A stretch of 64,000 nt of DNA, from assembly GCF_009914755.1 (NCBI RefSeq), contig NC_060930.1; one strand, written 5' to 3'. This DNA comes from the human T2T-CHM13v2.0 reference genome, Homo sapiens. A model generated the notes under the pieces. The model searched no databases, was not told the origin of the DNA, and was given only the letters and a program-made list of their open reading frames with translations. This document shows positions 55,520 through 64,000 of the stretch, piece after piece. Made by a program: the position numbers and the translations under genes. Every line of letters starts with the position of its first letter. Position 1 is the stretch's first letter.

Positions 55520-56697
<1,178 letters not shown>

Positions 56698-57269
56698 AAA
56701 GTTTTTTATAGTTTTTATAAGTGACCCCACTTCCACCAACCCTCACTTTTGGACGCTGGAATCAGCTTTGGAGATTTGTGTTTGCACCCAGACTTCATTC
56801 CTTACTAGCTTGGCGCCCTGCACTAGAAACCTCCATCTCTATTCTGTAAAAGTGAAGCAATAATGCCAATCTAATTGATGGAATGAGGAATAAGCTAATC
56901 CATTCAGGCAGTTTACTTAGCAATTGTAGGAAATTAAAGCTTTTTCTCTCCTCTTGTCTCCTTTACACTAAAACAGGGTGGACTGGGCACAATTTAACCC
57001 CTCCTGAATAACACGGATGTTTTTGAGATGAGTAACTATTGCTTTTTTTTTTCCACTGAGGTGTGGAAAAGCAGAGAAGCAGAGAAGTAGAGAAGCTTCA
57101 GAAATTGCTTTGTGAAGTTGAATGTGGATGTAAATAGGCAGCAGTTGCTGCCTCCTCCTTTCCCAAGGCTCAGCTCCCATTTCTAGTAGTTTAATTTAGA
57201 ATCCAAGAAACTGTGGACCTGTGCCTTCCCTCTAAATGACAAGGAGTAATAGAAGATGAGGATAACAAG

Positions 57270-59148
57270 GTAAAGGTAGCTTACCTTTGCAATTCCAGCA
57301 CTTTTGAGAAGCACAAAAATTACTTGAGAGCCACGACTTCAAAACCAACCCAGGGAACAGAGTAACACCTGCTCACTCCCAAAAACGTAAAATGTAGCCT
57401 GACAGAGCATCCAGACTTGGTGCGTTCGTCTCACAGGCTTCACTCAGCAGATCTTTGTGGTGAGTGTTACAGCTTTTAAGAATATATATGTGGAGATTTC
57501 TATTCCCCTCTCCCGACTTACTTATTCTTTGTTAAGTTTAATGACCTGCCTGGCCTACAGACATAAACCTACGAACCTTCATAATAAGCACTACAAAACA
57601 AAGAAAATACAAACAAACTGCAACAAAAATCTATTGCAAAAAACAAACACTTCCACACCACACAAAAAGTACTGCAGCTGGTTACCAGTACTGGCTCCCG
57701 CAGCCTGCTATTATACTCTTATCTGGCCCCACCCACATCCTGCTGATAGGTCCATTTTACAGAAAGCTGATTGGTCTGTTTTACAGAGAGCTGATTGGTC
57801 TGTTTTACAGAGAGCTGATTGGTCTGTTTCACAGAGAGCTGATTTGTCCATTTTGACAGGGTGCTGTTTGGTGCATGTACAATCCCTGAGCTAGACACAT
57901 AGTGCTGATTGGTGTATTTGCAATCCTCTAGCTAGACATAAAAGTTCTCCAAGTCCTCCCCAGATTAACTAGACACAGAGCACTGATTGGTGCGCTTACA
58001 AACCTTGAGCTAGACACAGGGTGCTGATTGGTGCATTTACAACCTTTAGCTAGACACAAAAGTTCTCCAAGTTCCCACTAGATGAGCTAAACACAGAGCG
58101 CCGATTGGTGCATTTACAAACCTTGAGCTAGGTACAGGGTGCTGATGGGTGTGTTTACAAACTTGAGCTAGACACCGAGCACTGATTAGTGCATTTATAA
58201 TCGTTTAGCTAGACAGAAAAGTTCTCCAAATCTCCACCAGATTAGCTAGATACAGAGTGCTGATTGGTGCACCCATGAACCCCAAGGTAGACAGAGTGCT
58301 GATTGGCACATATACAATCCTCCGGCTAGACATAAAAGTTCTCCGCGTCCCAACTCTACTGAGGAAGCCAGCTGGCTTCACCTAGTGAATCCACCATCAG
58401 GGCCGTGGGCGGAGCTGCCCTCCAGTCCGGCGGTGTGCGCCCGCACTCCTCAGCCCTTGGGCAGTTAATGAGACCGGGTGCCGGCGGAGGAGGGGGGCGC
58501 CCGTTAGGGGAGGCTTGGGCCGCCTGGGAGTCCACTGCGGGGGACTCGGGCGTGGCGGGCTGCAGGTCCCAAGCCCTGCCCCGCGGGAGGTGGCTGAAGC
58601 CCGGAGAGAATTCGAGCGCGGCGAGAGCGGGCCAGCGGTGCTGGGGGACCCGGCGCCCCCTCTGCAGCTGCTGGCCCGGGTGCTAAACCCCTCACTGCCT
58701 GGGGCCGGCAGCGCTGACGGCCCCTCCCAGTGCGGAACCCGCGCCCGCTGGGAACTCGCACTGGCCCGCGAGCGCCGTGAGCAGCCCCGGTTCCCGCCCA
58801 GCGCCTCTCTCTCCACATCTCGCAAGCCACACCTCCCCGCAAACACAGGGAGCAGGCTCAGGCCTCAGCCAGCCCAGGGAGGGGCTCCTACAGTGCAGCG
58901 GCAGGCTGAAGGGCTCCTCAATCTTGGCCAGAGCGGACACCAAGGCCGAGCAGGTGCTGAGAGCGAGCCAGGGCTGCTAGCACGTTGTCACCTCTCAGCA
59001 TGGTGGCACGCACCTGTGGTCTCAGCTATTTGGAAGGATCACTTGAGCCCAGGAATTAGAGGTTGCAGTGAGCTGGGATGGCACCACTGCACCGCAGCTT
59101 GGGTGTCAGAGCAGCAAGACTCTGTCTCTGAAAAAAGATAAAAATAAA
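57270..59148 (+). mobile_element. AluJ split by LTR12 (left arm ~57270-57405, right arm 58998-59148)
   Basis: Left arm ends ...TGTAGCCTGAC; right arm resumes GCATGGTGGCACGCACCTGT. Confidence 0.75.
57406..58997 (-). mobile_element. LTR12 (ERV9) solo LTR, copy 1
   Basis: Minus strand begins TGAGAGGTGACAACGTGCT; GC-rich U3; about 9 CCAAT (ATTGG) boxes in GCTAGACAC repeats. Confidence 0.93.
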
Positions 59149-59715
59149 AGAGACAGATGAATTGTGCCCAATGGCCCTAGATGTAGGGCCTCCACTATAC
59201 CACATATGGGATGGGGGCGTGAGTCACAGAATAGCATCCTTTCTGGAGTGTCCTGGCGGAGACACATGTTCTCATAGTGTAGCAGCAGAGTTACCTATTC
59301 CTCACTTCCAGCTTTTGATGGTTTTGCTATTTTTCATGTCTGTTTTTCTAATGGTTCTAGCACAGCTCTTACTAAGTCAAGTTGAGAAGCTGGCCGAGTG
59401 GCTTCCATCCCTTCGCCCTTTCTCCCCACCTGGCAGCTCCGTGGGGCAGTCAGGGGCATGGGCCTGGGAGCTGCCCTGGCTGACGTGAAAACAGGCTCCT
59501 TCCAGTGTGAAATGGGGCCAGTAATCCTTGCCGCCCCTGCTCTTAGGAGGGTTGTGTGCAGTGGCTGTTCCCTCCAGGTTTTCCAAAGTGCCCACGGAGA
59601 GTGAAACGGTGAATGAATGAATCTAAGCCAAGGCATCATGTAGGAGTCAGTGGCTCACAATAATTTGTGGTGAGGTGTGCCTGAAGATACAAAATGTGTC
59701 ATTAAAACACACACA

Positions 59716-60284
59716 GGGGCACCGTGGCTCACATCTATAATCCCAGCACTTTGGTAGGCCGAGGTGGGCAGATTACCTTAGGTCAGGCGTTCGAGACCAG
59801 CCTGGCCAACATAGTGAAACCCCATCTCTACTAAAAATACAAAAATTAGGCGTGGTGGCACATGCCTGTAATTCCAGCTACTTTTGTTGGGTGGGGGGGC
59901 GGCGCTGAGGCAGGAGAATTGCTTGAACCCAGGAGGCGGAGGTTGCAGTGAGCCGAGATTGTGCATTCCAGGCATTCTAGCCTGGGTGACAGAGTGAGAC
60001 TCGATCTCAAAACAAAAAACAAAAAAAAAACTAGCTCCATCAATTTTAATGGCTTACTAATTTTAATGCTCTTGAGAAAAACCACGTCTGGGTTGGTTCC
60101 CTCCTTTACAAAATGGAGATAACAGTTTTGTTTTTTTAAGAAGGGGTTCTTGCTCTGTCACCCAGGCTATAGGCCAGTGGCATAATCATAGCTCACTGCA
60201 GCCTATAACTCCTGGCCTCAAGCGATCCTCCCACCTCAGCCTCCCAAAGCATTGGGTTACAGGCATAAGCCACTATGTCCGGCC
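59716..60284. mobile_element. AluS (+, 59716-60030) and internally deleted AluJ (-, 60125-60284)
   Basis: Alu consensus matches. Confidence 0.8.
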
Positions 60285-60289
60285 AATAT

Positions 60290-60975
60290 TATCTATTTTT
60301 TTAATTAAAATTTTTATTTGGGGATAACTGTAGATCCAATTGTAAAAAGTACTACAGAAAGATTCCATGTACCCTTTACCCAGCTTCCCGCAGTAAAGTT
60401 TGCAAAACTATCATACAATATTGCATCTAGTATATTAAAATGTACATAAACTACCAATTTTATTCAGTTTCACTGTTACTCATGTGTATTTTGTTCTAAA
60501 TAACTATATCGCATGTGTAGGTTTGTGTATTTACTTCCCCAGCCATGACCACAAAGAACTCTGACCTCTCCTGTTGCCCTTTTACAGCCACACCTACCTG
60601 TCTTCATCATGACCCCCCTCAATGCCTGGCAGCCACAAATCTGTTCACTTCCAAAACTTTGTATTATCAATAATGTTATATACATAGAATCATGTAGGCG
60701 TGTGTGGGATTTTTTTCCACTCTGCATACTTCCTTGGAGCTTCATCCAAGTTGTTGCATTTATTGTGAATTTGTTCCTTTTGATTGCTAAGTGATAGTTT
60801 GTGGTTTGGATGTACACAGTTTAACTATTCATTAAAGGACATTTGGACTGTCTCCAAATTTTGGGCTATTATGAACAAGACTCCTATGAACATTCTTATA
60901 TGGGTTTTTATGTTAATGTACATTGTAATTTCTCTGGGATAAATACCTAAGAGTACAATTGCTAGGTTAATATCT
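60290..60975 (-). mobile_element. Old L1M 3' fragment
   Basis: GTACCCTTTACCCAGCTTCCC ... TCTCTGGGATAAATACCTAAGAGTACAATTGCTAGG. Confidence 0.75.
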
Positions 60976-61439
60976 ATTTTTATAGGTCTTGGCGAGCAAT
61001 AAATTGAATGAGATCGTGTATGTAAAATCACTCATCTGACTTTTTTTTTCATTCCTCAACCTTCTTCCTTTCCTTCCTTTTGATGACGTTTTGGTCATAG
61101 GTTTGTGCTAGGATGAAAGTCTTGTTTAAAAAGAAAAAATGAGAGGATGGACTTCTTTTTGGAAAAGATGTAATGAACAGATGCCGTTGAGACCTGTTAG
61201 GATTTTCTGTCCTTAAATTTCTTTCCACAGATTTTCAGAGCTTGAGTCACTTTATAATTTCAGAGAACACATCTTCGTCACCTGCTGTGGCGTAGTGACT
61301 TTAATCTAGATGATCTTGCTGGCAGCTGTGCTGGATGAACAAGTGTCTTCTGTTTTATAGGCAGCATCGTCACAAACACTGTCAGGTCAGGAAAAGAAAA
61401 AGAAACACACACCACAGCACTTTATTCCAGGCAGATTGA

Positions 61440-62462
<1,023 letters not shown>

Positions 62463-62557
62463 ACAACCACACACACACACAGAAAAGACACACTCCAGGG
62501 ACAGGGGCTCAGACTTTCCAAAGTCTTCGCAAACTTATGCTTTTCCAGGGCTGCTGG

Positions 62558-64000
62558 TGTGTCCAGAATTGGTCAGTGCCCGGTTTCACCGACTTCAAAA
62601 ATGAAACCATGGGCCCTTAACAGTGAGTATTAAATTTCTTATAGGCGGCATGTCTGGAGCTTGCTCCTTCTAATGTTCCAATGTGTTCAGTTTTTTTCCT
62701 TTTGGTGGATTATGTAGTCTTCCTTGCTCAGAAGTGAGGCTACTAACTTTCACAGTGAATGTTATAGCTCGTAAAACTGGCACGTCTGGAGTTATGTCTC
62801 AGTGAATTTGTGGGCTCACTGGCTTCAGAAGTGAAGCCACAGACCTTCATAATGAGTGCTACAATTCACAAAAGCAGCACAGACCTAAAGACCAAGCAGA
62901 AACAAGACGAGGGAGGAGGAGGAAGAGAAAAAGCTTCCACACAGCAAAAGTAGGTTACAGCTTATTACTACTGGAAGCTCAAGGCAGCCTGCTTTTATTC
63001 TCTCATCTGGCCCCACCCACATCCTGCTGATTGGTCCATTTTACAGAGAGCTGACTGGTCTGTTTTGACAGGGTGCTGATTGGTGCGTTTACAATCCCTG
63101 AGCTAGACACAAAAATTCTCCATGTCCCCGCTAGATTACCTAGATACAGAGTGTTGACTGATGTATTTACAAATCGTGAGCTAGTCACAGAGTGCCGATT
63201 GGTGTATTCACAATCCCTTAGCTAGACATAAAGATTCTCCAAGTCCCCAACAGATTAACTAGATACAGAGTGCCGATTGGTGCATTCACAAACCCTGAGC
63301 TAGACACAGGGTGCTGATTGGTGTGTTTACAAACCTTGAGCTAGAGACAGTGCTGATTGGTGTATTTACAATCCCTTAGCTAGACATAAAGGTACTCCAT
63401 AGTCCCACACCAGACTCAGGACCCAAGCTGGCTTCACCCAGTGGATCCTGCACTAGGGCCGCAAGCGGAGCTGCCTGCTGGTCCCGCGCTGTGCGCCTGC
63501 ACTTCTGCACTCCTCAGCCCTTGGGCAGTCGTATGGGATCTGGGCGCTCTGGAGCACGGAGTGGCGCTCGTCGGGGAGGCTTGGGCTGTTGGGGAGGCTT
63601 AGGCTTGGCGGGCTGCAAGTCCGGAGCCCTGCCCCGCGGGGAGGCAGCTAAGGCCCGGCGAGAAATACGAGTACAGCAGCTCCTGGTCTAGGTGCTAAGC
63701 CCCTCACTGCCCCGGACTTGCGAGCCGGCGGCTGCTCCGAGTGCGGAGCCCGCTGAGCCCACAACCCGCCCGGAACTCGCGCTGGCCCGCAAGCGCTGCA
63801 CGCAGCCCCGGTTCCCGCCCGGCTTGTCTCTCCACACCTCCCCGCAAGTTGAGGGAGCCGGCTCCGGCCTTGGCTAGCCCAGTAAGGGGCTCCCACAGTG
63901 CAGTGGTGGGCTGAAGTGCTTCTCAAGCGCTGCCAGAGTGGGCGCCCAGGCCCAGGAGGCGCTGAGAGCGAGCCAGGGCTGAGGGCTGTCAGCACGCTGT
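62558..64000 (-). mobile_element. LTR12 (ERV9) solo LTR, copy 2 (5' end clipped by the window edge)
   Basis: TGTGTCCAGAATTGG terminus at 62558; about 6 CCAAT boxes; GC-rich U3 running to the window end. Confidence 0.93.

What the first reader, a model, noticed from the sequence alone, without database searches (positions are those of the whole stretch)
57270..57715. Strand-asymmetric G-loss hypermutation zone just downstream of the LTR12 TSS, extending into the host Alu
Seen: 57561-57670 has only 6 G in 110 nt on +, against 29 G in the 120-nt homologous stretch of copy 2 (62831-62950). The U3 to the right of ~57715 still aligns closely with copy 2. The host Alu is an internal control: its left arm is heavily eroded (consensus AGGAGTTCGAGACCAGCC reads ACGACTTCAAAACCAACC, all changes G>A or G>C), while the right arm of the same insertion (58998-59148) looks ordinary. 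Established: LTR12 initiates a short distance downstream of its AATAAAA TATA-like box, here ~57685 heading leftward. APOBEC3 editing of retroviral cDNA gives G>A on the LTR sense strand, the opposite polarity, and could not reach flanking DNA. Inference: post-integration cytosine damage on the non-template strand over the first ~400 nt of a very active germline transcription unit (R-loop or ssDNA), i.e. a local accelerated-evolution hotspot.
Basis: partly seen in the sequence, partly recalled or inferred. Interest (0 to 1): 0.85.

Follow-up and report, generated by a model that had tools for sequence, protein, structure and literature searches.

The report
Hypermutated first exon behind LTR12 promoter
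Just downstream of the transcription start of an old retroviral LTR, and of a second LTR 5 kb away, the DNA has changed several times faster than its surroundings, mostly by losing C on the non-template strand, and the damage runs on into a host Alu, which fits transcription-linked mutation in the germ line better than editing of the virus before it integrated.

Summary
Copy 1 is an ERV9/LTR12 solo LTR on the minus strand (57401-58997), inserted into a plus-oriented Alu. All seven RefSeq LINC02522 transcripts start in it (exon 1 = 57285-57683).

Divergence from 63-64 other LTR12 copies steps up within about 10 nt of the start site, from 5/88 to 85/244 shared columns changed.

- **First 140 nt (57551-57690):** the non-template strand lost 31/42 shared C (26 to T, 5 to G, none CpG) but only 5/27 G.
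- **Next 100 nt:** the polarity is not kept (G 15/21, C 8/20).
- **Alu left piece:** lost 20/35 plus-strand G and 11/31 C. The right piece lost 4/32 and 4/27.
- **A>G over T>C** on the non-template strand: 13/82 against 2/84.

This sequence has no other copy in the genome. Unexpectedly, the second LTR12 (62548 to about 64009) shows the same step (1/70 to 110/409).

Best reading: post-integration mutagenesis anchored at the start site, a known kind seen at start-site hotspots and at snRNA and tRNA genes, here in extreme fossil form. Germline activity, R-loops and the deaminase are not shown. Subfamily and exact age are undetermined.

The parts
57401..58997 (-). Copy 1: ERV9/LTR12 solo LTR, 1,597 nt. 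The 5' end is at 58997. The 3' end is at 57401 and is uncertain by up to about 8 nt. No target-site duplication was recognisable.
   Evidence: the genome search own gave 4003 first-look candidates, of which 40 were scored. Best matches were 75-81% identical over query positions 1 to about 1200-1360. U3 tandem repeats of period 41 carry CCAAT. Ends read TG..CA on the sense strand. It is flanked by the two pieces of one Alu.
57684..58997 (-). U3 of copy 1 (control region): ordinary, strand-symmetric divergence.
   Evidence: Pairwise identity is 0.71-0.88 per 50 nt, with C>T about equal to G>A. The 5' part 58350-58997 has 64/534 shared columns changed (C 31/202, G 24/204), rank 3 of 64, against a family median of 7.1%. 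The last 100 nt have 5/88 changed.
57709..57715 (-). TATA-like heptamer. It reads TATAATA on the sense strand, where the family has AATAAAA according to the review.
   Evidence: Sequence. Its position is 26-32 nt upstream of the RefSeq 5' end. The family motif and spacing are from PMC11853044 (passages).
57684..57695 (-). Initiator-like inverted-repeat motif. The annotated LINC02522 5' end (57683) follows it directly.
   Evidence: Sequence. The motif GCCANNNNTGGC and start-site use are described in PMC11853044. All 7 RefSeq transcripts NR_183332-NR_183338 start at 57683.
57285..57683 (-). LINC02522 exon 1: R-U5 of the LTR plus antisense Alu left arm. The splice donor lies in the Alu.
   Evidence: RefSeq table given with the finding.
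57551..57690 (-). Zone I: near-saturating loss of C on the non-template (sense) strand.
   Evidence: Shared C columns: 31/42 lost (26 to T, 5 to G, 0 to A; none CpG). G: 5/27 lost. Fisher p=7.7e-6. Other copies pooled lost C 248/2666 and G 150/1711. Median pairwise C>T 24-26 vs G>A 3. Copy 1 is the top outlier of 38 and of 65 copies. No other genomic match exists for this stretch.
57451..57550 (-). Zone II: strongly diverged, with the polarity not kept. More G than C is lost on the non-template strand.
   Evidence: G 15/21 lost (10 to A) and C 8/20 lost, p=0.06. G loss differs from zone I (5/27), p=3.5e-4.
57401..57450 (-). Zone III: end of U5, moderately diverged.
   Evidence: C 6/17 lost and G 0/7 lost; 12/43 shared columns changed.
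57262..57400 (+). Left piece of the host Alu. It is hypermutated, with plus-strand G lost most.
   Evidence: 43/122 shared columns changed. G 20/35 lost (13 to A, 5 to C, 2 to T), C 11/31, T 8/23 (5 to C), A 4/33. Identity to 31 window Alus is 0.649 against 0.76-0.87 for their own left arms. The highest whole-Alu G or C loss in the 31 controls is 22%.
58998..59148 (+). Right piece of the same Alu (control): ordinary.
   Evidence: 18/114 shared columns changed. G 4/32 lost and C 4/27 lost. Identity 0.748, with controls at 0.74-0.84.
62548..64000 (-). Copy 2: a second LTR12 in the same orientation. Its 5' end lies about 9 nt beyond the window end (about 64009). No RefSeq gene starts in it.
   Evidence: Its U3 5' part has 52/500 shared columns changed, symmetrically.
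62553..62975 (-). R-U5 of copy 2. It shows the same step at the homologous start site (62966), with a weaker strand bias.
   Evidence: 1/70 shared columns changed in 62993-63072 against 110/409 in 62553-62992. Losses: C 48/128, G 25/91, A 27/111, T 10/79. Onset is in the -10..-1 bin. Pairwise identity is 0.90-0.93 upstream and 0.54-0.77 downstream. The best genomic matches to its R-U5 are only 73-75% identical.
62165..62465 (+). Host Alu directly downstream of copy 2. Divergence falls with distance from the LTR.
   Evidence: Non-template C lost 6/15, 5/24, 2/17 and 4/23, and G lost 6/14, 0/12, 2/19 and 2/13, in 75-nt bins at 520-819 nt from the start site. This Alu has the highest G loss of the 31 window Alus (17/79). 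This is weak evidence on its own.
56405..56710 (-). Intronic Alu about 1.0-1.3 kb downstream of the copy 1 start site. It shows a mild asymmetry of the same polarity.
   Evidence: Non-template C lost 11/61 against G 4/76, p=0.026.
57742..57872 (-). Tandem array of 5.4 units of 24 nt, each with a CCAAT box, just upstream of the TATA-like box.
   Evidence: The CCAAT count in the 250 nt upstream of the start is 4, against 1-6 (mode 4) in 63 copies, so it is not unusual.

Best explanation
After this ERV9/LTR12 solo LTR had integrated into an Alu, the DNA from its start site onward accumulated substitutions several-fold faster than the DNA just upstream. The affected stretch is at least 57262-57690, roughly LINC02522 exon 1.

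The main component is loss of cytosine on the non-template strand (C>T, then C>G), strongest in the first 140 nt. It comes with an A>G excess on the same strand and smaller rises at G.

This is the pattern expected of transcription-associated mutagenesis in the germ line. The non-template strand near an active start site is exposed as single-stranded DNA (open complex, paused polymerase, possibly R-loops). Its cytosines are then deaminated, either spontaneously or by an APOBEC3-type enzyme.

Shown: the step at the start site, the polarity, independence from CpG, the reach into host DNA, and the replicate at copy 2. Inferred: germline activity of these two promoters, single-strandedness, and the agent of deamination.
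For: 1. **Step at the start site.** Changed/shared columns per 10-nt bin are at most 1/9-1/10 upstream of -10, then 3/10 and more from -10 onward, in copy 1 and independently in copy 2. Copy 1 goes from 5/88 to 85/244 (p=1e-8) and copy 2 from 1/70 to 110/409 (p=6e-8). The pairwise-only check agrees.
2. **Polarity.** Zone I lost C 31/42 against G 5/27 (p=7.7e-6), none at CpG. Over the whole zone the non-template strand lost C 65/114 against G 31/86 (p=0.004). A>G is 13/82 against T>C 2/84 (p=0.0025). Whole R-U5 pairwise medians are: copy 1 C>T 34 / G>A 13 and A>G 11 / T>C 3; copy 2 C>T 38 / G>A 19 and A>G 18 / T>C 12.
3. **Host DNA is hit.** See the Alu left piece against the right piece and against 31 controls.
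4. **Decay with distance.** See the Alus at 520-819 nt and at about 1-1.3 kb.
5. **Not inherited.** The sequence is unique in the genome. Copy 2 shares only 13 of copy 1's 47 derived states in zone I.
6. **Two outliers in one window.** The R-U5/U3 divergence ratio is 2.93 for copy 1 and 2.76 for copy 2, the two highest of 63 copies. The others have a median of 0.83.
7. **Size of the effect.** The rate ratio is about 13.7x for zone I C against other copies, and 6.7x (C) and 5.7x (G) against copy 1's own flanks.
8. **Copy 1 is an annotated promoter**, and 0 of 63 comparators are.
9. **Print.**
   - A local C>T over G>A asymmetry in the first 1-2 kb and a global A>G over T>C asymmetry on the non-template strand (PMC2927911, passages).
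   - A start-site hypermutation peak inside exon 1, dependent on testis expression and also seen at lncRNA starts (PMC13712754, abstract and sections 7 and 10).
   - A 37-46-fold non-CpG C>T excess on the non-transcribed strand of Pol II snRNA genes (bioRxiv 10.64898/2026.10.12.758683, section 7).
   - LTR12C is the leading LTR promoter of chimeric transcripts in human oocyte and testis (PMC8767690, passages).
Against: - The polarity is not uniform. Zone II loses G (15/21) more than C (8/20) on the non-template strand, and its G loss differs from zone I at p=3.5e-4. A simple non-template-strand model does not predict this.
- In copy 2 the C-over-G and A-over-T biases at shared columns are not significant (p=0.15 and 0.06).
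- The effect is 6-14x. The genome-wide start-site excess in print is tens of per cent (PMC12658150 passages), so an exceptional, long-lasting activity must be assumed.
- No germline expression, R-loop or variant data for this locus were available.
- None of 6 known LTR12 promoter copies (GBP5, IRGM, ZNF80, SCHLAP1, LINC01419, PGPEP1L) shows the step. PGPEP1L shows a mild one: C 10/42, G 3/28.
- The U3/R border is also the end of retroviral strong-stop DNA, so the position of the step alone does not separate transcription from reverse transcription.
- Family members before the C loss were C-rich, not G-rich, on the non-template strand here (median 43 C and 31 G), which is not what R-loop-prone sequence usually looks like.
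Confidence: 0.6

Rival explanations
1. One or a few bursts of enzymatic cytosine deamination (APOBEC3 or AID type) struck single-stranded genomic DNA in a germline cell, as in kataegis-like clusters. The DNA could have been exposed by break resection or replication rather than by steady transcription. Different patches would then have been hit on different strands.
For: - C loss in zone I is near-saturating (31/42) and gives only C>T (26) and C>G (5), with no C>A.
- Patches of opposite polarity lie next to each other: zone I against zone II, p=3.5e-4. From memory, break resection would give this pattern.
- TC context is lost most (11/12 against 20/30 in other contexts).
- Strand-coordinated C or G clusters attributed to APOBEC3G, enriched in transcribed regions, are described for hominid evolution (PMC4864454, passages).
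Against: - The context preference is not significant (p=0.13).
- A columns are also raised, and A>G is strand-biased (13/82 against 2/84). A cytosine deaminase does not explain that.
- The step sits at the start site in two separate LTRs, which random bursts would not do.
- The density is far above the small clusters described in PMC4864454.
- The signal decays into flanking Alus over about 1 kb.
Confidence: 0.2
2. The R-U5 damage arose before integration, during reverse transcription (editing or error-prone synthesis of strong-stop DNA, which spans exactly R-U5). The Alu left arm would then have been damaged separately, for example during Alu retrotransposition.
For: - The step coincides with the U3/R border in both copies.
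- In copy 2 the raised divergence runs to the very end of U5.
- Zone II of copy 1 has the classical polarity, G>A on the sense strand (10 of 15 G losses).
- G>A on the Alu sense strand is the polarity expected of cDNA editing during Alu insertion (established knowledge).
Against: - The dominant signal in zone I has the opposite polarity, C>T on the sense strand.
- It needs two or three independent rare events lying side by side. None of the 31 control Alus approaches the left piece.
- Only the Alu half that adjoins the LTR's downstream end is affected.
- Intronic and flanking Alus show a weaker bias of the same polarity.
- A>G is strand-biased in both the LTR part and the Alu part.
Confidence: 0.07
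3. There is no local hypermutation. Copies 1 and 2 belong to an old or unusual LTR12 subfamily whose R-U5 differs from the majority, or their U3 regions were renewed by gene conversion and so look younger than R-U5.
For: - Both copies are among the more diverged in U3 (12.0% and 10.4% against a median of 7.1%).
- They share 13 of 47 derived states in zone I, against a median of 2 for other copies.
- The comparators are probably dominated by the large LTR12C group. That name is recalled and was not tested.
Against: - No other genomic copy matches copy 1's R zone, and the best matches to copy 2's R-U5 are only 73-75% identical. A subfamily should have closer members.
- The loss is base-specific (C 31/42 against T 4/37), not a general difference.
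- Other old copies have R-U5 divergence of 5-15%.
- The two halves of one Alu are the same age yet differ 35% against 16%.
- Divergence of 27-35% would imply an age far beyond the roughly 30 My of the family (PMC11853044).
Confidence: 0.05
4. Assembly or sequencing artefact in T2T-CHM13.
For: None was found.
Against: - Seven curated RefSeq transcripts place their first exon exactly on 57285-57683, so the sequence matches independent transcript evidence.
- The pattern is base-specific and bounded by biological landmarks in two separate LTRs.
Confidence: 0.02

Closest known systems
[quoted passage not shown]
   Same: It is anchored at the start site. The peak lies just downstream, inside the first exon. 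All mutation types are raised. It is also seen at lncRNA starts expressed in testis and is linked to polymerase pausing and R-loops.
   Different: The published effect is a statistical excess of tens of per cent over thousands of genes, measured in polymorphism and de novo data. Here it is a 6-14x excess fixed as substitutions at single loci, with near-saturation of one base on one strand, at promoters supplied by retroviral LTRs.
Hypermutable Pol II snRNA genes, and tRNA genes as cited there (bioRxiv 10.64898/2026.10.12.758683)
   Same: These are locus-level extremes. There is a non-CpG C>T excess of tens of fold biased to the non-transcribed strand, with C>G in the same direction. Transcription-exposed single-stranded DNA is the proposed substrate.
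   Different: Those are short structured-RNA genes with TCW enrichment and APOBEC3B binding data. Here the unit is a spliced lncRNA first exon, no significant sequence context was found (TC 11/12 against others 20/30, p=0.13), and there are no binding data.
Transcription-associated strand asymmetries in mammalian genes (PMC2927911 and the 2008 study it cites)
   Same: The same two polarities on the non-template strand: C>T over G>A confined to the first 1-2 kb, and A>G over T>C.
   Different: Those are small ratios seen only in pooled data. Here they are visible at one locus. A 100-nt patch of opposite C/G polarity has no counterpart there.
APOBEC3 editing of retroviral or retroelement cDNA (classical G>A hypermutation of proviruses)
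   Same: Dense cytosine-deamination-type changes in an LTR, possibly the same enzyme family.
   Different: The classical footprint is G>A on the element's sense strand and stops at the element's ends. Here the main footprint is C>T on the sense strand, begins at the U3/R border, leaves U3 untouched and continues into host Alu DNA.
APOBEC3G-like strand-coordinated mutation clusters in hominid genomes (PMC4864454)
   Same: Strand-coordinated C (or G) changes in genomic DNA of the germ line, enriched in transcribed regions and exons.
   Different: Those are small clusters defined by a CCC context and arising in one generation. Here there are dozens of changes with no clear context, plus A-site changes.

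Membership tests
ERV9 / LTR12 long terminal repeat | U3 enhancer made of tandem repeats of about 41 nt carrying CCAAT (NF-Y) motifs (PMC11853044). | tested here: met
   TRF finds arrays of period 41 in 57861-58215. There are 4 CCAAT boxes in the 250 nt upstream of the start.
ERV9 / LTR12 long terminal repeat | AATAAAA-type TATA-like box about 30 nt upstream of a start site lying in or next to a GCCANNNNTGGC-type inverted repeat (PMC11853044). | tested here: met
   A TATA-like heptamer lies at 57709-57715. The inverted-repeat-like motif lies at 57684-57695 and departs from the published pattern at its last base. The RefSeq 5' end is at 57683.
ERV9 / LTR12 long terminal repeat | Sequence homology along the LTR to the several thousand genomic copies. 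| tested here: met
   4003 first-look candidates, of which 40 were scored. Matches are 75-81% identical over U3. R-U5 is alignable column by column with 63-64 copies.
ERV9 / LTR12 long terminal repeat | Assignment to a named subfamily (LTR12, B, C, D, E, F). | not testable with these tools
No repeat library (Dfam or RepeatMasker) is on hand, and the mask track carries no family names.
Solo LTR (recombined provirus) | A single LTR flanked directly by host DNA, with a short target-site duplication. | tested here: inconclusive
   The flanks are the two pieces of one Alu, which abut to within 1 nt in all 31 comparator alignments. No duplication could be recognised. The 3' flank lies in the hypermutated zone.
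Transcription-associated germline hypermutation at a start site | The excess begins at the start site and lies mainly in the first exon. | tested here: met
   Onset is in the -10..-1 bin in both LTRs. The zone 57262-57690 compares with exon 1 at 57285-57683.
Transcription-associated germline hypermutation at a start site | Strand asymmetry: C>T (and C>G) and A>G in excess on the non-template strand. | tested here: met
   Met overall: C 65/114 against G 31/86, p=0.004, and A>G 13/82 against T>C 2/84. One 100-nt patch has the reverse C/G bias. Copy 2 shows the same direction in pairwise medians but is not significant at shared columns.
Transcription-associated germline hypermutation at a start site | Decay with distance over about 1-2 kb. 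| tested here: inconclusive
   Only Alus can be scored. At 283-421 nt C loss is 57%. At about 1-1.3 kb it is 18% (G 5%). At 2.5 kb it is 4%. The points are few and unique DNA cannot be scored.
Transcription-associated germline hypermutation at a start site | The promoter is active in germline cells, and there is an ongoing excess of rare or de novo variants. | not testable with these tools
   No expression, variant or R-loop data could be reached. Family-level germline activity of LTR12C is in print (PMC8767690).
APOBEC3 editing of retroviral cDNA | G>A on the element's sense strand in GG or GA context, confined to the element. | tested here: not met
   In zone I G>A is 3 against C>T 24-26. 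Host Alu DNA is affected. Only zone II has that polarity, and context counts are too small to judge (GA 7/9, GG 3/4).
APOBEC3A/B-type genomic cluster (kataegis-like) | Strand-coordinated C>T and C>G at TC. | tested here: inconclusive
   Zone I is strand-coordinated (C>T 26, C>G 5, C>A 0). TC is lost 11/12 against 20/30 for other contexts, p=0.13.

The most novel reading that the evidence does not exclude
In the primate germ line, transcribed LTR12 promoters can become extreme targets of cytosine deamination on their exposed non-template strand, possibly by APOBEC3 enzymes acting on integrated rather than reverse-transcribing retroviral DNA. The process would erode R-U5 and adjoining host DNA from the start site onward while sparing the U3 promoter. 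It would wear down the LTR's own R-U5 signals and leave a read-through host promoter. The two neighbouring LTRs of this window would be fossil records of such post-integration erosion, readable base by base because repeats supply the earlier state.
Probability: 0.12. Interest if true: 0.8.

Novelty: new member of a known kind. Interest (0 to 1): 0.5.

Why it matters
Start-site hypermutation in the human germ line has so far been shown statistically over thousands of genes, or at special small-RNA genes. Here the earlier state can be read from hundreds of sister repeats. One locus therefore shows the start, the polarity, the spectrum and the reach of the process at single-base scale. A second LTR 5 kb away serves as a replicate, and a split Alu serves as an internal control of equal age.

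If the pattern tracks germline activity across the roughly 5,000 LTR12 copies, the R-U5/U3 divergence ratio would be a simple sequence-only record of which retroviral promoters have been active in the germ line over millions of years. It would also show how such promoters lose their own downstream signals.

There is a practical point for annotation. The worn R-U5 and Alu arm escape the repeat mask, so exon 1 of LINC02522 looks like unique sequence although it is entirely repeat-derived.

Tried and rejected
**Inherited variant or duplication.** I searched the reference genome with 57401-57715. Only the locus itself covers the G-poor stretch, so this was rejected.

**Subfamily difference.** I searched with copy 2's R-U5 (best 73-75% identity), counted shared derived states and compared U3 with R-U5 divergence over 63 copies. 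Rejected as the main cause.

**CpG decay.** None of the 42 shared C columns of zone I is CpG. Rejected.

**Unrelated or simple-repeat sequence replacing R.** Non-C columns of zone I are largely kept (T 33/37, G 22/27, A 17/24). Rejected.

**A stronger promoter through extra CCAAT boxes.** There are 4 in 250 nt against 1-6 in 63 copies. Nothing unusual.

**A general property of LTR12 promoters.** I fetched 8 gene 5' ends named in the review's Table 1. Six held the LTR12 anchor. LINC01194 and SEMA4D did not within the 1,001 nt fetched and were dropped. None of the 6 shows the step.

**Annotated starts among comparators.** 0 of 63.

**Target-site duplication.** Not recognisable.

**Other scans.** Rfam found no family in 56300-64000. 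The promoter/terminator scan is of bacterial type and says nothing here.

**Dating in years.** Abandoned. 12% change in a CpG-rich U3, measured against a family state dominated by other subfamilies, cannot be turned into an age. Only a rank is given.

**Literature on this effect at LTRs.** I ran 'LTR12' with 'hypermutation' (12 papers; 10 listed, none on this by title). I also ran 'transcription-associated mutagenesis' with retrovirus terms (only the top 12 of 2,134 seen, listing only). LINC02522 occurs in 2 papers, listing only. Supplementary tables of PMC8767690 may list which LTR12 loci are expressed in oocyte and testis.

**Rows dropped.**
- 2 of 65 loci lacked the U3-end anchor.
- 2 of 65 lacked a 400-nt U3 match.
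- 9 of 40 Alu hits shorter than 220 nt were not used as comparators.
- Comparators aligned over less than half a region were left out of medians.
- L014 is truncated by an insertion, so its high values are alignment artefacts.


Full report
**What is there.** The plus strand of 57401-58997 is the reverse complement of a long terminal repeat of the ERV9/LTR12 family.
- The reference genome holds thousands of relatives: 4003 first-look candidates, of which 40 were scored, the best 75-81% identical over U3.
- U3 carries the family's roughly 41-nt tandem repeats with CCAAT boxes.
- A TATA-like heptamer sits at 57709-57715. An initiator-like inverted repeat sits at 57684-57695.
- These features are described in the LTR12 review PMC11853044 (passages).
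- The LTR is solitary. Its two flanks are the left piece (about 57262-57400) and the right piece (58998 to about 59148) of one plus-oriented Alu. The pieces abut to within one base in alignments with all 31 comparator Alus.
- No target-site duplication could be recognised, and the 3' end of the LTR is uncertain by a few bases.
- All seven RefSeq LINC02522 transcripts begin at 57683. They share a first exon, 57285-57683, whose donor lies in the antisense Alu arm.
- A second LTR12 (copy 2) lies in the same orientation from 62548 to about 64009, just past the window end. No RefSeq gene starts in it.

**The observation.** I aligned the end of U3 plus R-U5 of copy 1 with 36 and later 63 other genomic copies and with copy 2. 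Two of 65 fetched loci lacked the anchor and were dropped.
- In pairwise counts on the LTR sense strand (the window's minus strand), 57546-57690 shows a median of 24-26 C>T against 3 G>A, 6 C>G against 2 G>C, and 6 A>G against 2 T>C.
- Identity there is 0.59-0.60, where other copies have a median of 0.825.
- Copy 1 is the most extreme of 38 copies.
- The stretch has no other match in the genome, so it is not an inherited variant.

**Anatomy of the zone.** I counted at columns where at least 70% of the relatives agree.
- The 100 nt upstream of 57690 are ordinary: 5/88 changed, C 2/19 and G 0/26.
- Zone I (57551-57690) lost 31/42 C (26 to T, 5 to G, none to A) but only 5/27 G, 7/24 A and 4/37 T. 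None of the C columns is CpG, and the C-against-G contrast has p=7.7e-6.
- Other copies pooled lost 9.3% of C and 8.8% of G here. This gives a rate ratio of about 14 for C.
- Sequence context is not decisive: TC 11/12, AC 7/9, CC 6/9, GC 7/11, and TC against the rest has p=0.13.
- Zone II (57451-57550) is as diverged, but with G lost more than C (15/21 against 8/20).
- Zone III (57401-57450) lost C 6/17 and G 0/7.
G loss differs between zones I and II at p=3.5e-4. I have no tested explanation for that patch.

**The host Alu.** I compared the two pieces separately with 31 Alus of the window.
- The left piece is outside the control range. Identity is 0.649 against 0.76-0.87, and it has 18 G against 26-35.
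- The right piece is inside the range: 0.748 against 0.74-0.84.
- At shared columns the left piece lost 20/35 G (13 to A, 5 to C, 2 to T), 11/31 C, 8/23 T (5 to C) and 4/33 A. The right piece lost 4/32 G and 4/27 C.
- G loss left against right has p=2.6e-4. No control Alu loses more than 22% of either base.
- The two halves are the same age, so host DNA next to the downstream end of the LTR has been hypermutated with plus-strand G loss leading. Not all changes are at G, as the finding had it.
- Over the LTR's R-U5 and the Alu piece together, the non-template strand lost C 65/114 and G 31/86, against 6/51 and 4/53 in the flanking controls.
- A>G outnumbers T>C 13/82 to 2/84 on that strand (p=0.0025; counts, test).

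**Where it starts.** In 10-nt bins relative to the annotated start, at most one column per bin is changed upstream of -10. From the -10..-1 bin onward 1 to 6 of 8-10 columns are changed. U3 as a whole is ordinary and symmetric: pairwise identity is 0.71-0.88, and the 5' part has 64/534 changed, with C 31/202 and G 24/204.

**The second LTR.** Copy 2 was meant as a comparator but shows the same thing.
- 1/70 shared columns are changed upstream of 62993, and 110/409 are changed over 62553-62992. Losses are C 48/128, G 25/91, A 27/111 and T 10/79.
- The onset is again in the -10..-1 bin of the homologous start (62966).
- Its U3 5' part is ordinary (52/500, symmetric).
- A check that uses pairwise identities only confirms both steps. 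Identity is 0.85-0.93 upstream, then 0.50-0.72 in copy 1 and 0.54-0.77 in copy 2, where other copies have 0.75-0.91.
- In pairwise medians over R-U5 both copies have the same polarities. Copy 1 has C>T 34 / G>A 13 and A>G 11 / T>C 3. Copy 2 has C>T 38 / G>A 19 and A>G 18 / T>C 12. At shared columns, however, copy 2's biases are not significant (p=0.15 and 0.06).
- The two copies share only 13 of copy 1's 47 derived states in zone I, so the damage is largely independent.
- Among 63 copies, their R-U5/U3 divergence ratios (2.93 and 2.76) are the two highest. The others have a median of 0.83.
- The best genomic matches to copy 2's R-U5 are only 73-75% identical, which argues against an unseen subfamily.

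**Distance.** Only repeats can be scored.
- The Alu just downstream of copy 2 loses non-template C at 6/15, 5/24, 2/17 and 4/23, and G at 6/14, 0/12, 2/19 and 2/13, over 520-819 nt from the start.
- The intronic Alu at about 1.0-1.3 kb from the copy 1 start loses C 11/61 against G 4/76 (p=0.026).
- Alus at 2.5 kb and beyond are unremarkable.
- This fits a decay over about 1 kb but rests on few points.

**Mechanism.** The position of the step, the reach into host DNA, and the polarities at C and at A together match transcription-associated mutagenesis, as follows.
- In mammals C>T exceeds G>A on the non-template strand only in the first 1-2 kb of transcripts, and A>G exceeds T>C throughout. The first is ascribed to single-stranded exposure near the start (PMC2927911, passages).
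- Recent work describes a germline hypermutation peak just downstream of start sites. It lies within the first exon, depends on testis expression and is also present at lncRNA starts (PMC13712754, abstract and sections 7 and 10; PMC12658150, passages).
- At Pol II snRNA genes non-CpG C>T is raised 37-46-fold with a bias to the non-transcribed strand, and APOBEC3 is proposed as a contributor (bioRxiv 10.64898/2026.10.12.758683, abstract and section 7).
- LTR12C is the leading LTR promoter of chimeric transcripts in human oocyte and testis (PMC8767690, passages).

What I could not show is that these two particular LTRs are or were active in germline cells, that R-loops form here, or which agent deaminates. 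The spectrum of zone I (C>T 26, C>G 5, C>A 0) suits uracil-type lesions, but the context test is not significant.

Against a simple model stand four things:
- the reversed patch in zone II;
- the size of the effect compared with the genome-wide average;
- six known LTR12 promoter copies (GBP5, IRGM, ZNF80, SCHLAP1, LINC01419, PGPEP1L) showing no such step, with PGPEP1L only mildly (C 10/42, G 3/28);
- none of the 63 comparator copies being an annotated start, so the link to promoter use rests on copy 1 alone.

**Rivals.**
- *Enzymatic bursts.* One or a few bursts on exposed genomic single strands would explain the saturation and the adjacent patches of opposite polarity. Such germline clusters are in print (PMC4864454, passages). 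Bursts do not explain the A-site changes, the identical anchoring at two start sites, or the decay into neighbouring Alus.
- *Damage during reverse transcription.* This would explain a boundary at the U3/R border, which is also the end of strong-stop DNA. The main polarity is the wrong one, and the Alu arm would need a separate, equally rare event next door.
- *A subfamily or gene-conversion artefact.* This is contradicted by the base specificity, the lack of closer relatives and the unequal halves of one Alu.
- *An assembly artefact.* This is unlikely, because curated transcripts map their first exon exactly here. I could not compare other assemblies.

**Family and age.** The element is real and belongs to ERV9/LTR12. 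The subfamily cannot be named with the tools at hand.
- By change at shared U3 columns, copy 1 (12.0%, rank 3 of 64) and copy 2 (10.4%) are among the older copies sampled, against a median of 7.1%.
- Copy 1 entered an Alu that is itself moderately old. The Alu's right piece has 18/114 shared columns changed, which is 15.8%. This was not scored the same way as the controls: the 31 window Alus' per-base G or C loss is 3-22%.
- I give no age in years. The U3 is CpG-rich, and the shared state is dominated by other subfamilies.

**Verdict.** This is a real, strongly non-random feature, and its core claim (post-integration, start-site-anchored, strand-biased cytosine loss reaching host DNA) stands. 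It is an extreme single-locus example, with a replicate, of a known kind of process rather than a new kind. The germline-activity and R-loop parts remain inference.

Noticed in passing
window 62553-62992 (copy 2 R-U5); start-site homologue 62966: The second LTR12 of the window shows the same abrupt rise in divergence at its start site (1/70 then 110/409 shared columns changed). All four bases are raised and the strand bias is weaker. No RefSeq gene starts there.
   Followed up: yes
window 62165-62465: The Alu directly downstream of copy 2 is the most G-depleted of the 31 window Alus (plus-strand G loss 17/79). Its divergence falls with distance from the LTR end.
   Followed up: partly
window 56405-56710: An intronic Alu about 1-1.3 kb downstream of the LINC02522 start loses non-template C 11/61 against G 4/76 (p=0.026). 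This is the same polarity as the main zone.
   Followed up: partly
window 57630-57635 (copy 1) and 62873-62912 (copy 2): The place of the LTR's own polyadenylation hexamer departs from the family state in copy 1. It is unrecognisable in copy 2, where none of 6 shared A columns in that bin is kept. That would favour read-through from the LTR into host DNA, as LINC02522 exon 1 does.
   Followed up: no
window 57284/57285: The splice donor of LINC02522 exon 1 lies in the antisense, hypermutated left arm of the Alu. The first exon is therefore entirely repeat-derived (LTR R-U5 plus Alu).
   Followed up: no
window 57262-57713 and 62548-62979: The reference's repeat mask (stretches of 100 nt or more) leaves both worn R-U5 regions and the Alu left piece unmasked. 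It does mask the adjoining U3 ends (57714-57868 and 62980-63122).
   Followed up: no
L038 (G000:C13:61265027-61269181), L004 (C6:20172813-20175899), L020 (C4:17747037-17751214), L016 (C1:188202022-188206235), L076 (PGPEP1L promoter copy, C15:96771441-96772441): A few other LTR12 copies show a milder C-biased loss in the same 140 nt after the start site: 13/42 against 2/27, 11/41 against 1/27, 10/40 against 2/23, 9/42 against 1/27 and 10/42 against 3/28. The family as a whole shows no bias (C 9.3%, G 8.8%).
   Followed up: partly
window 57742-57872: A tandem array of 5.4 units of 24 nt, each with a CCAAT box, lies just upstream of the TATA-like box. The CCAAT count near the start is not unusual for the family.
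   Followed up: yes
window 57401-57409 and 58998: No target-site duplication can be recognised at the solo LTR. The 3' junction lies in the hypermutated zone, and the exact LTR end is uncertain by a few bases.
   Followed up: partly
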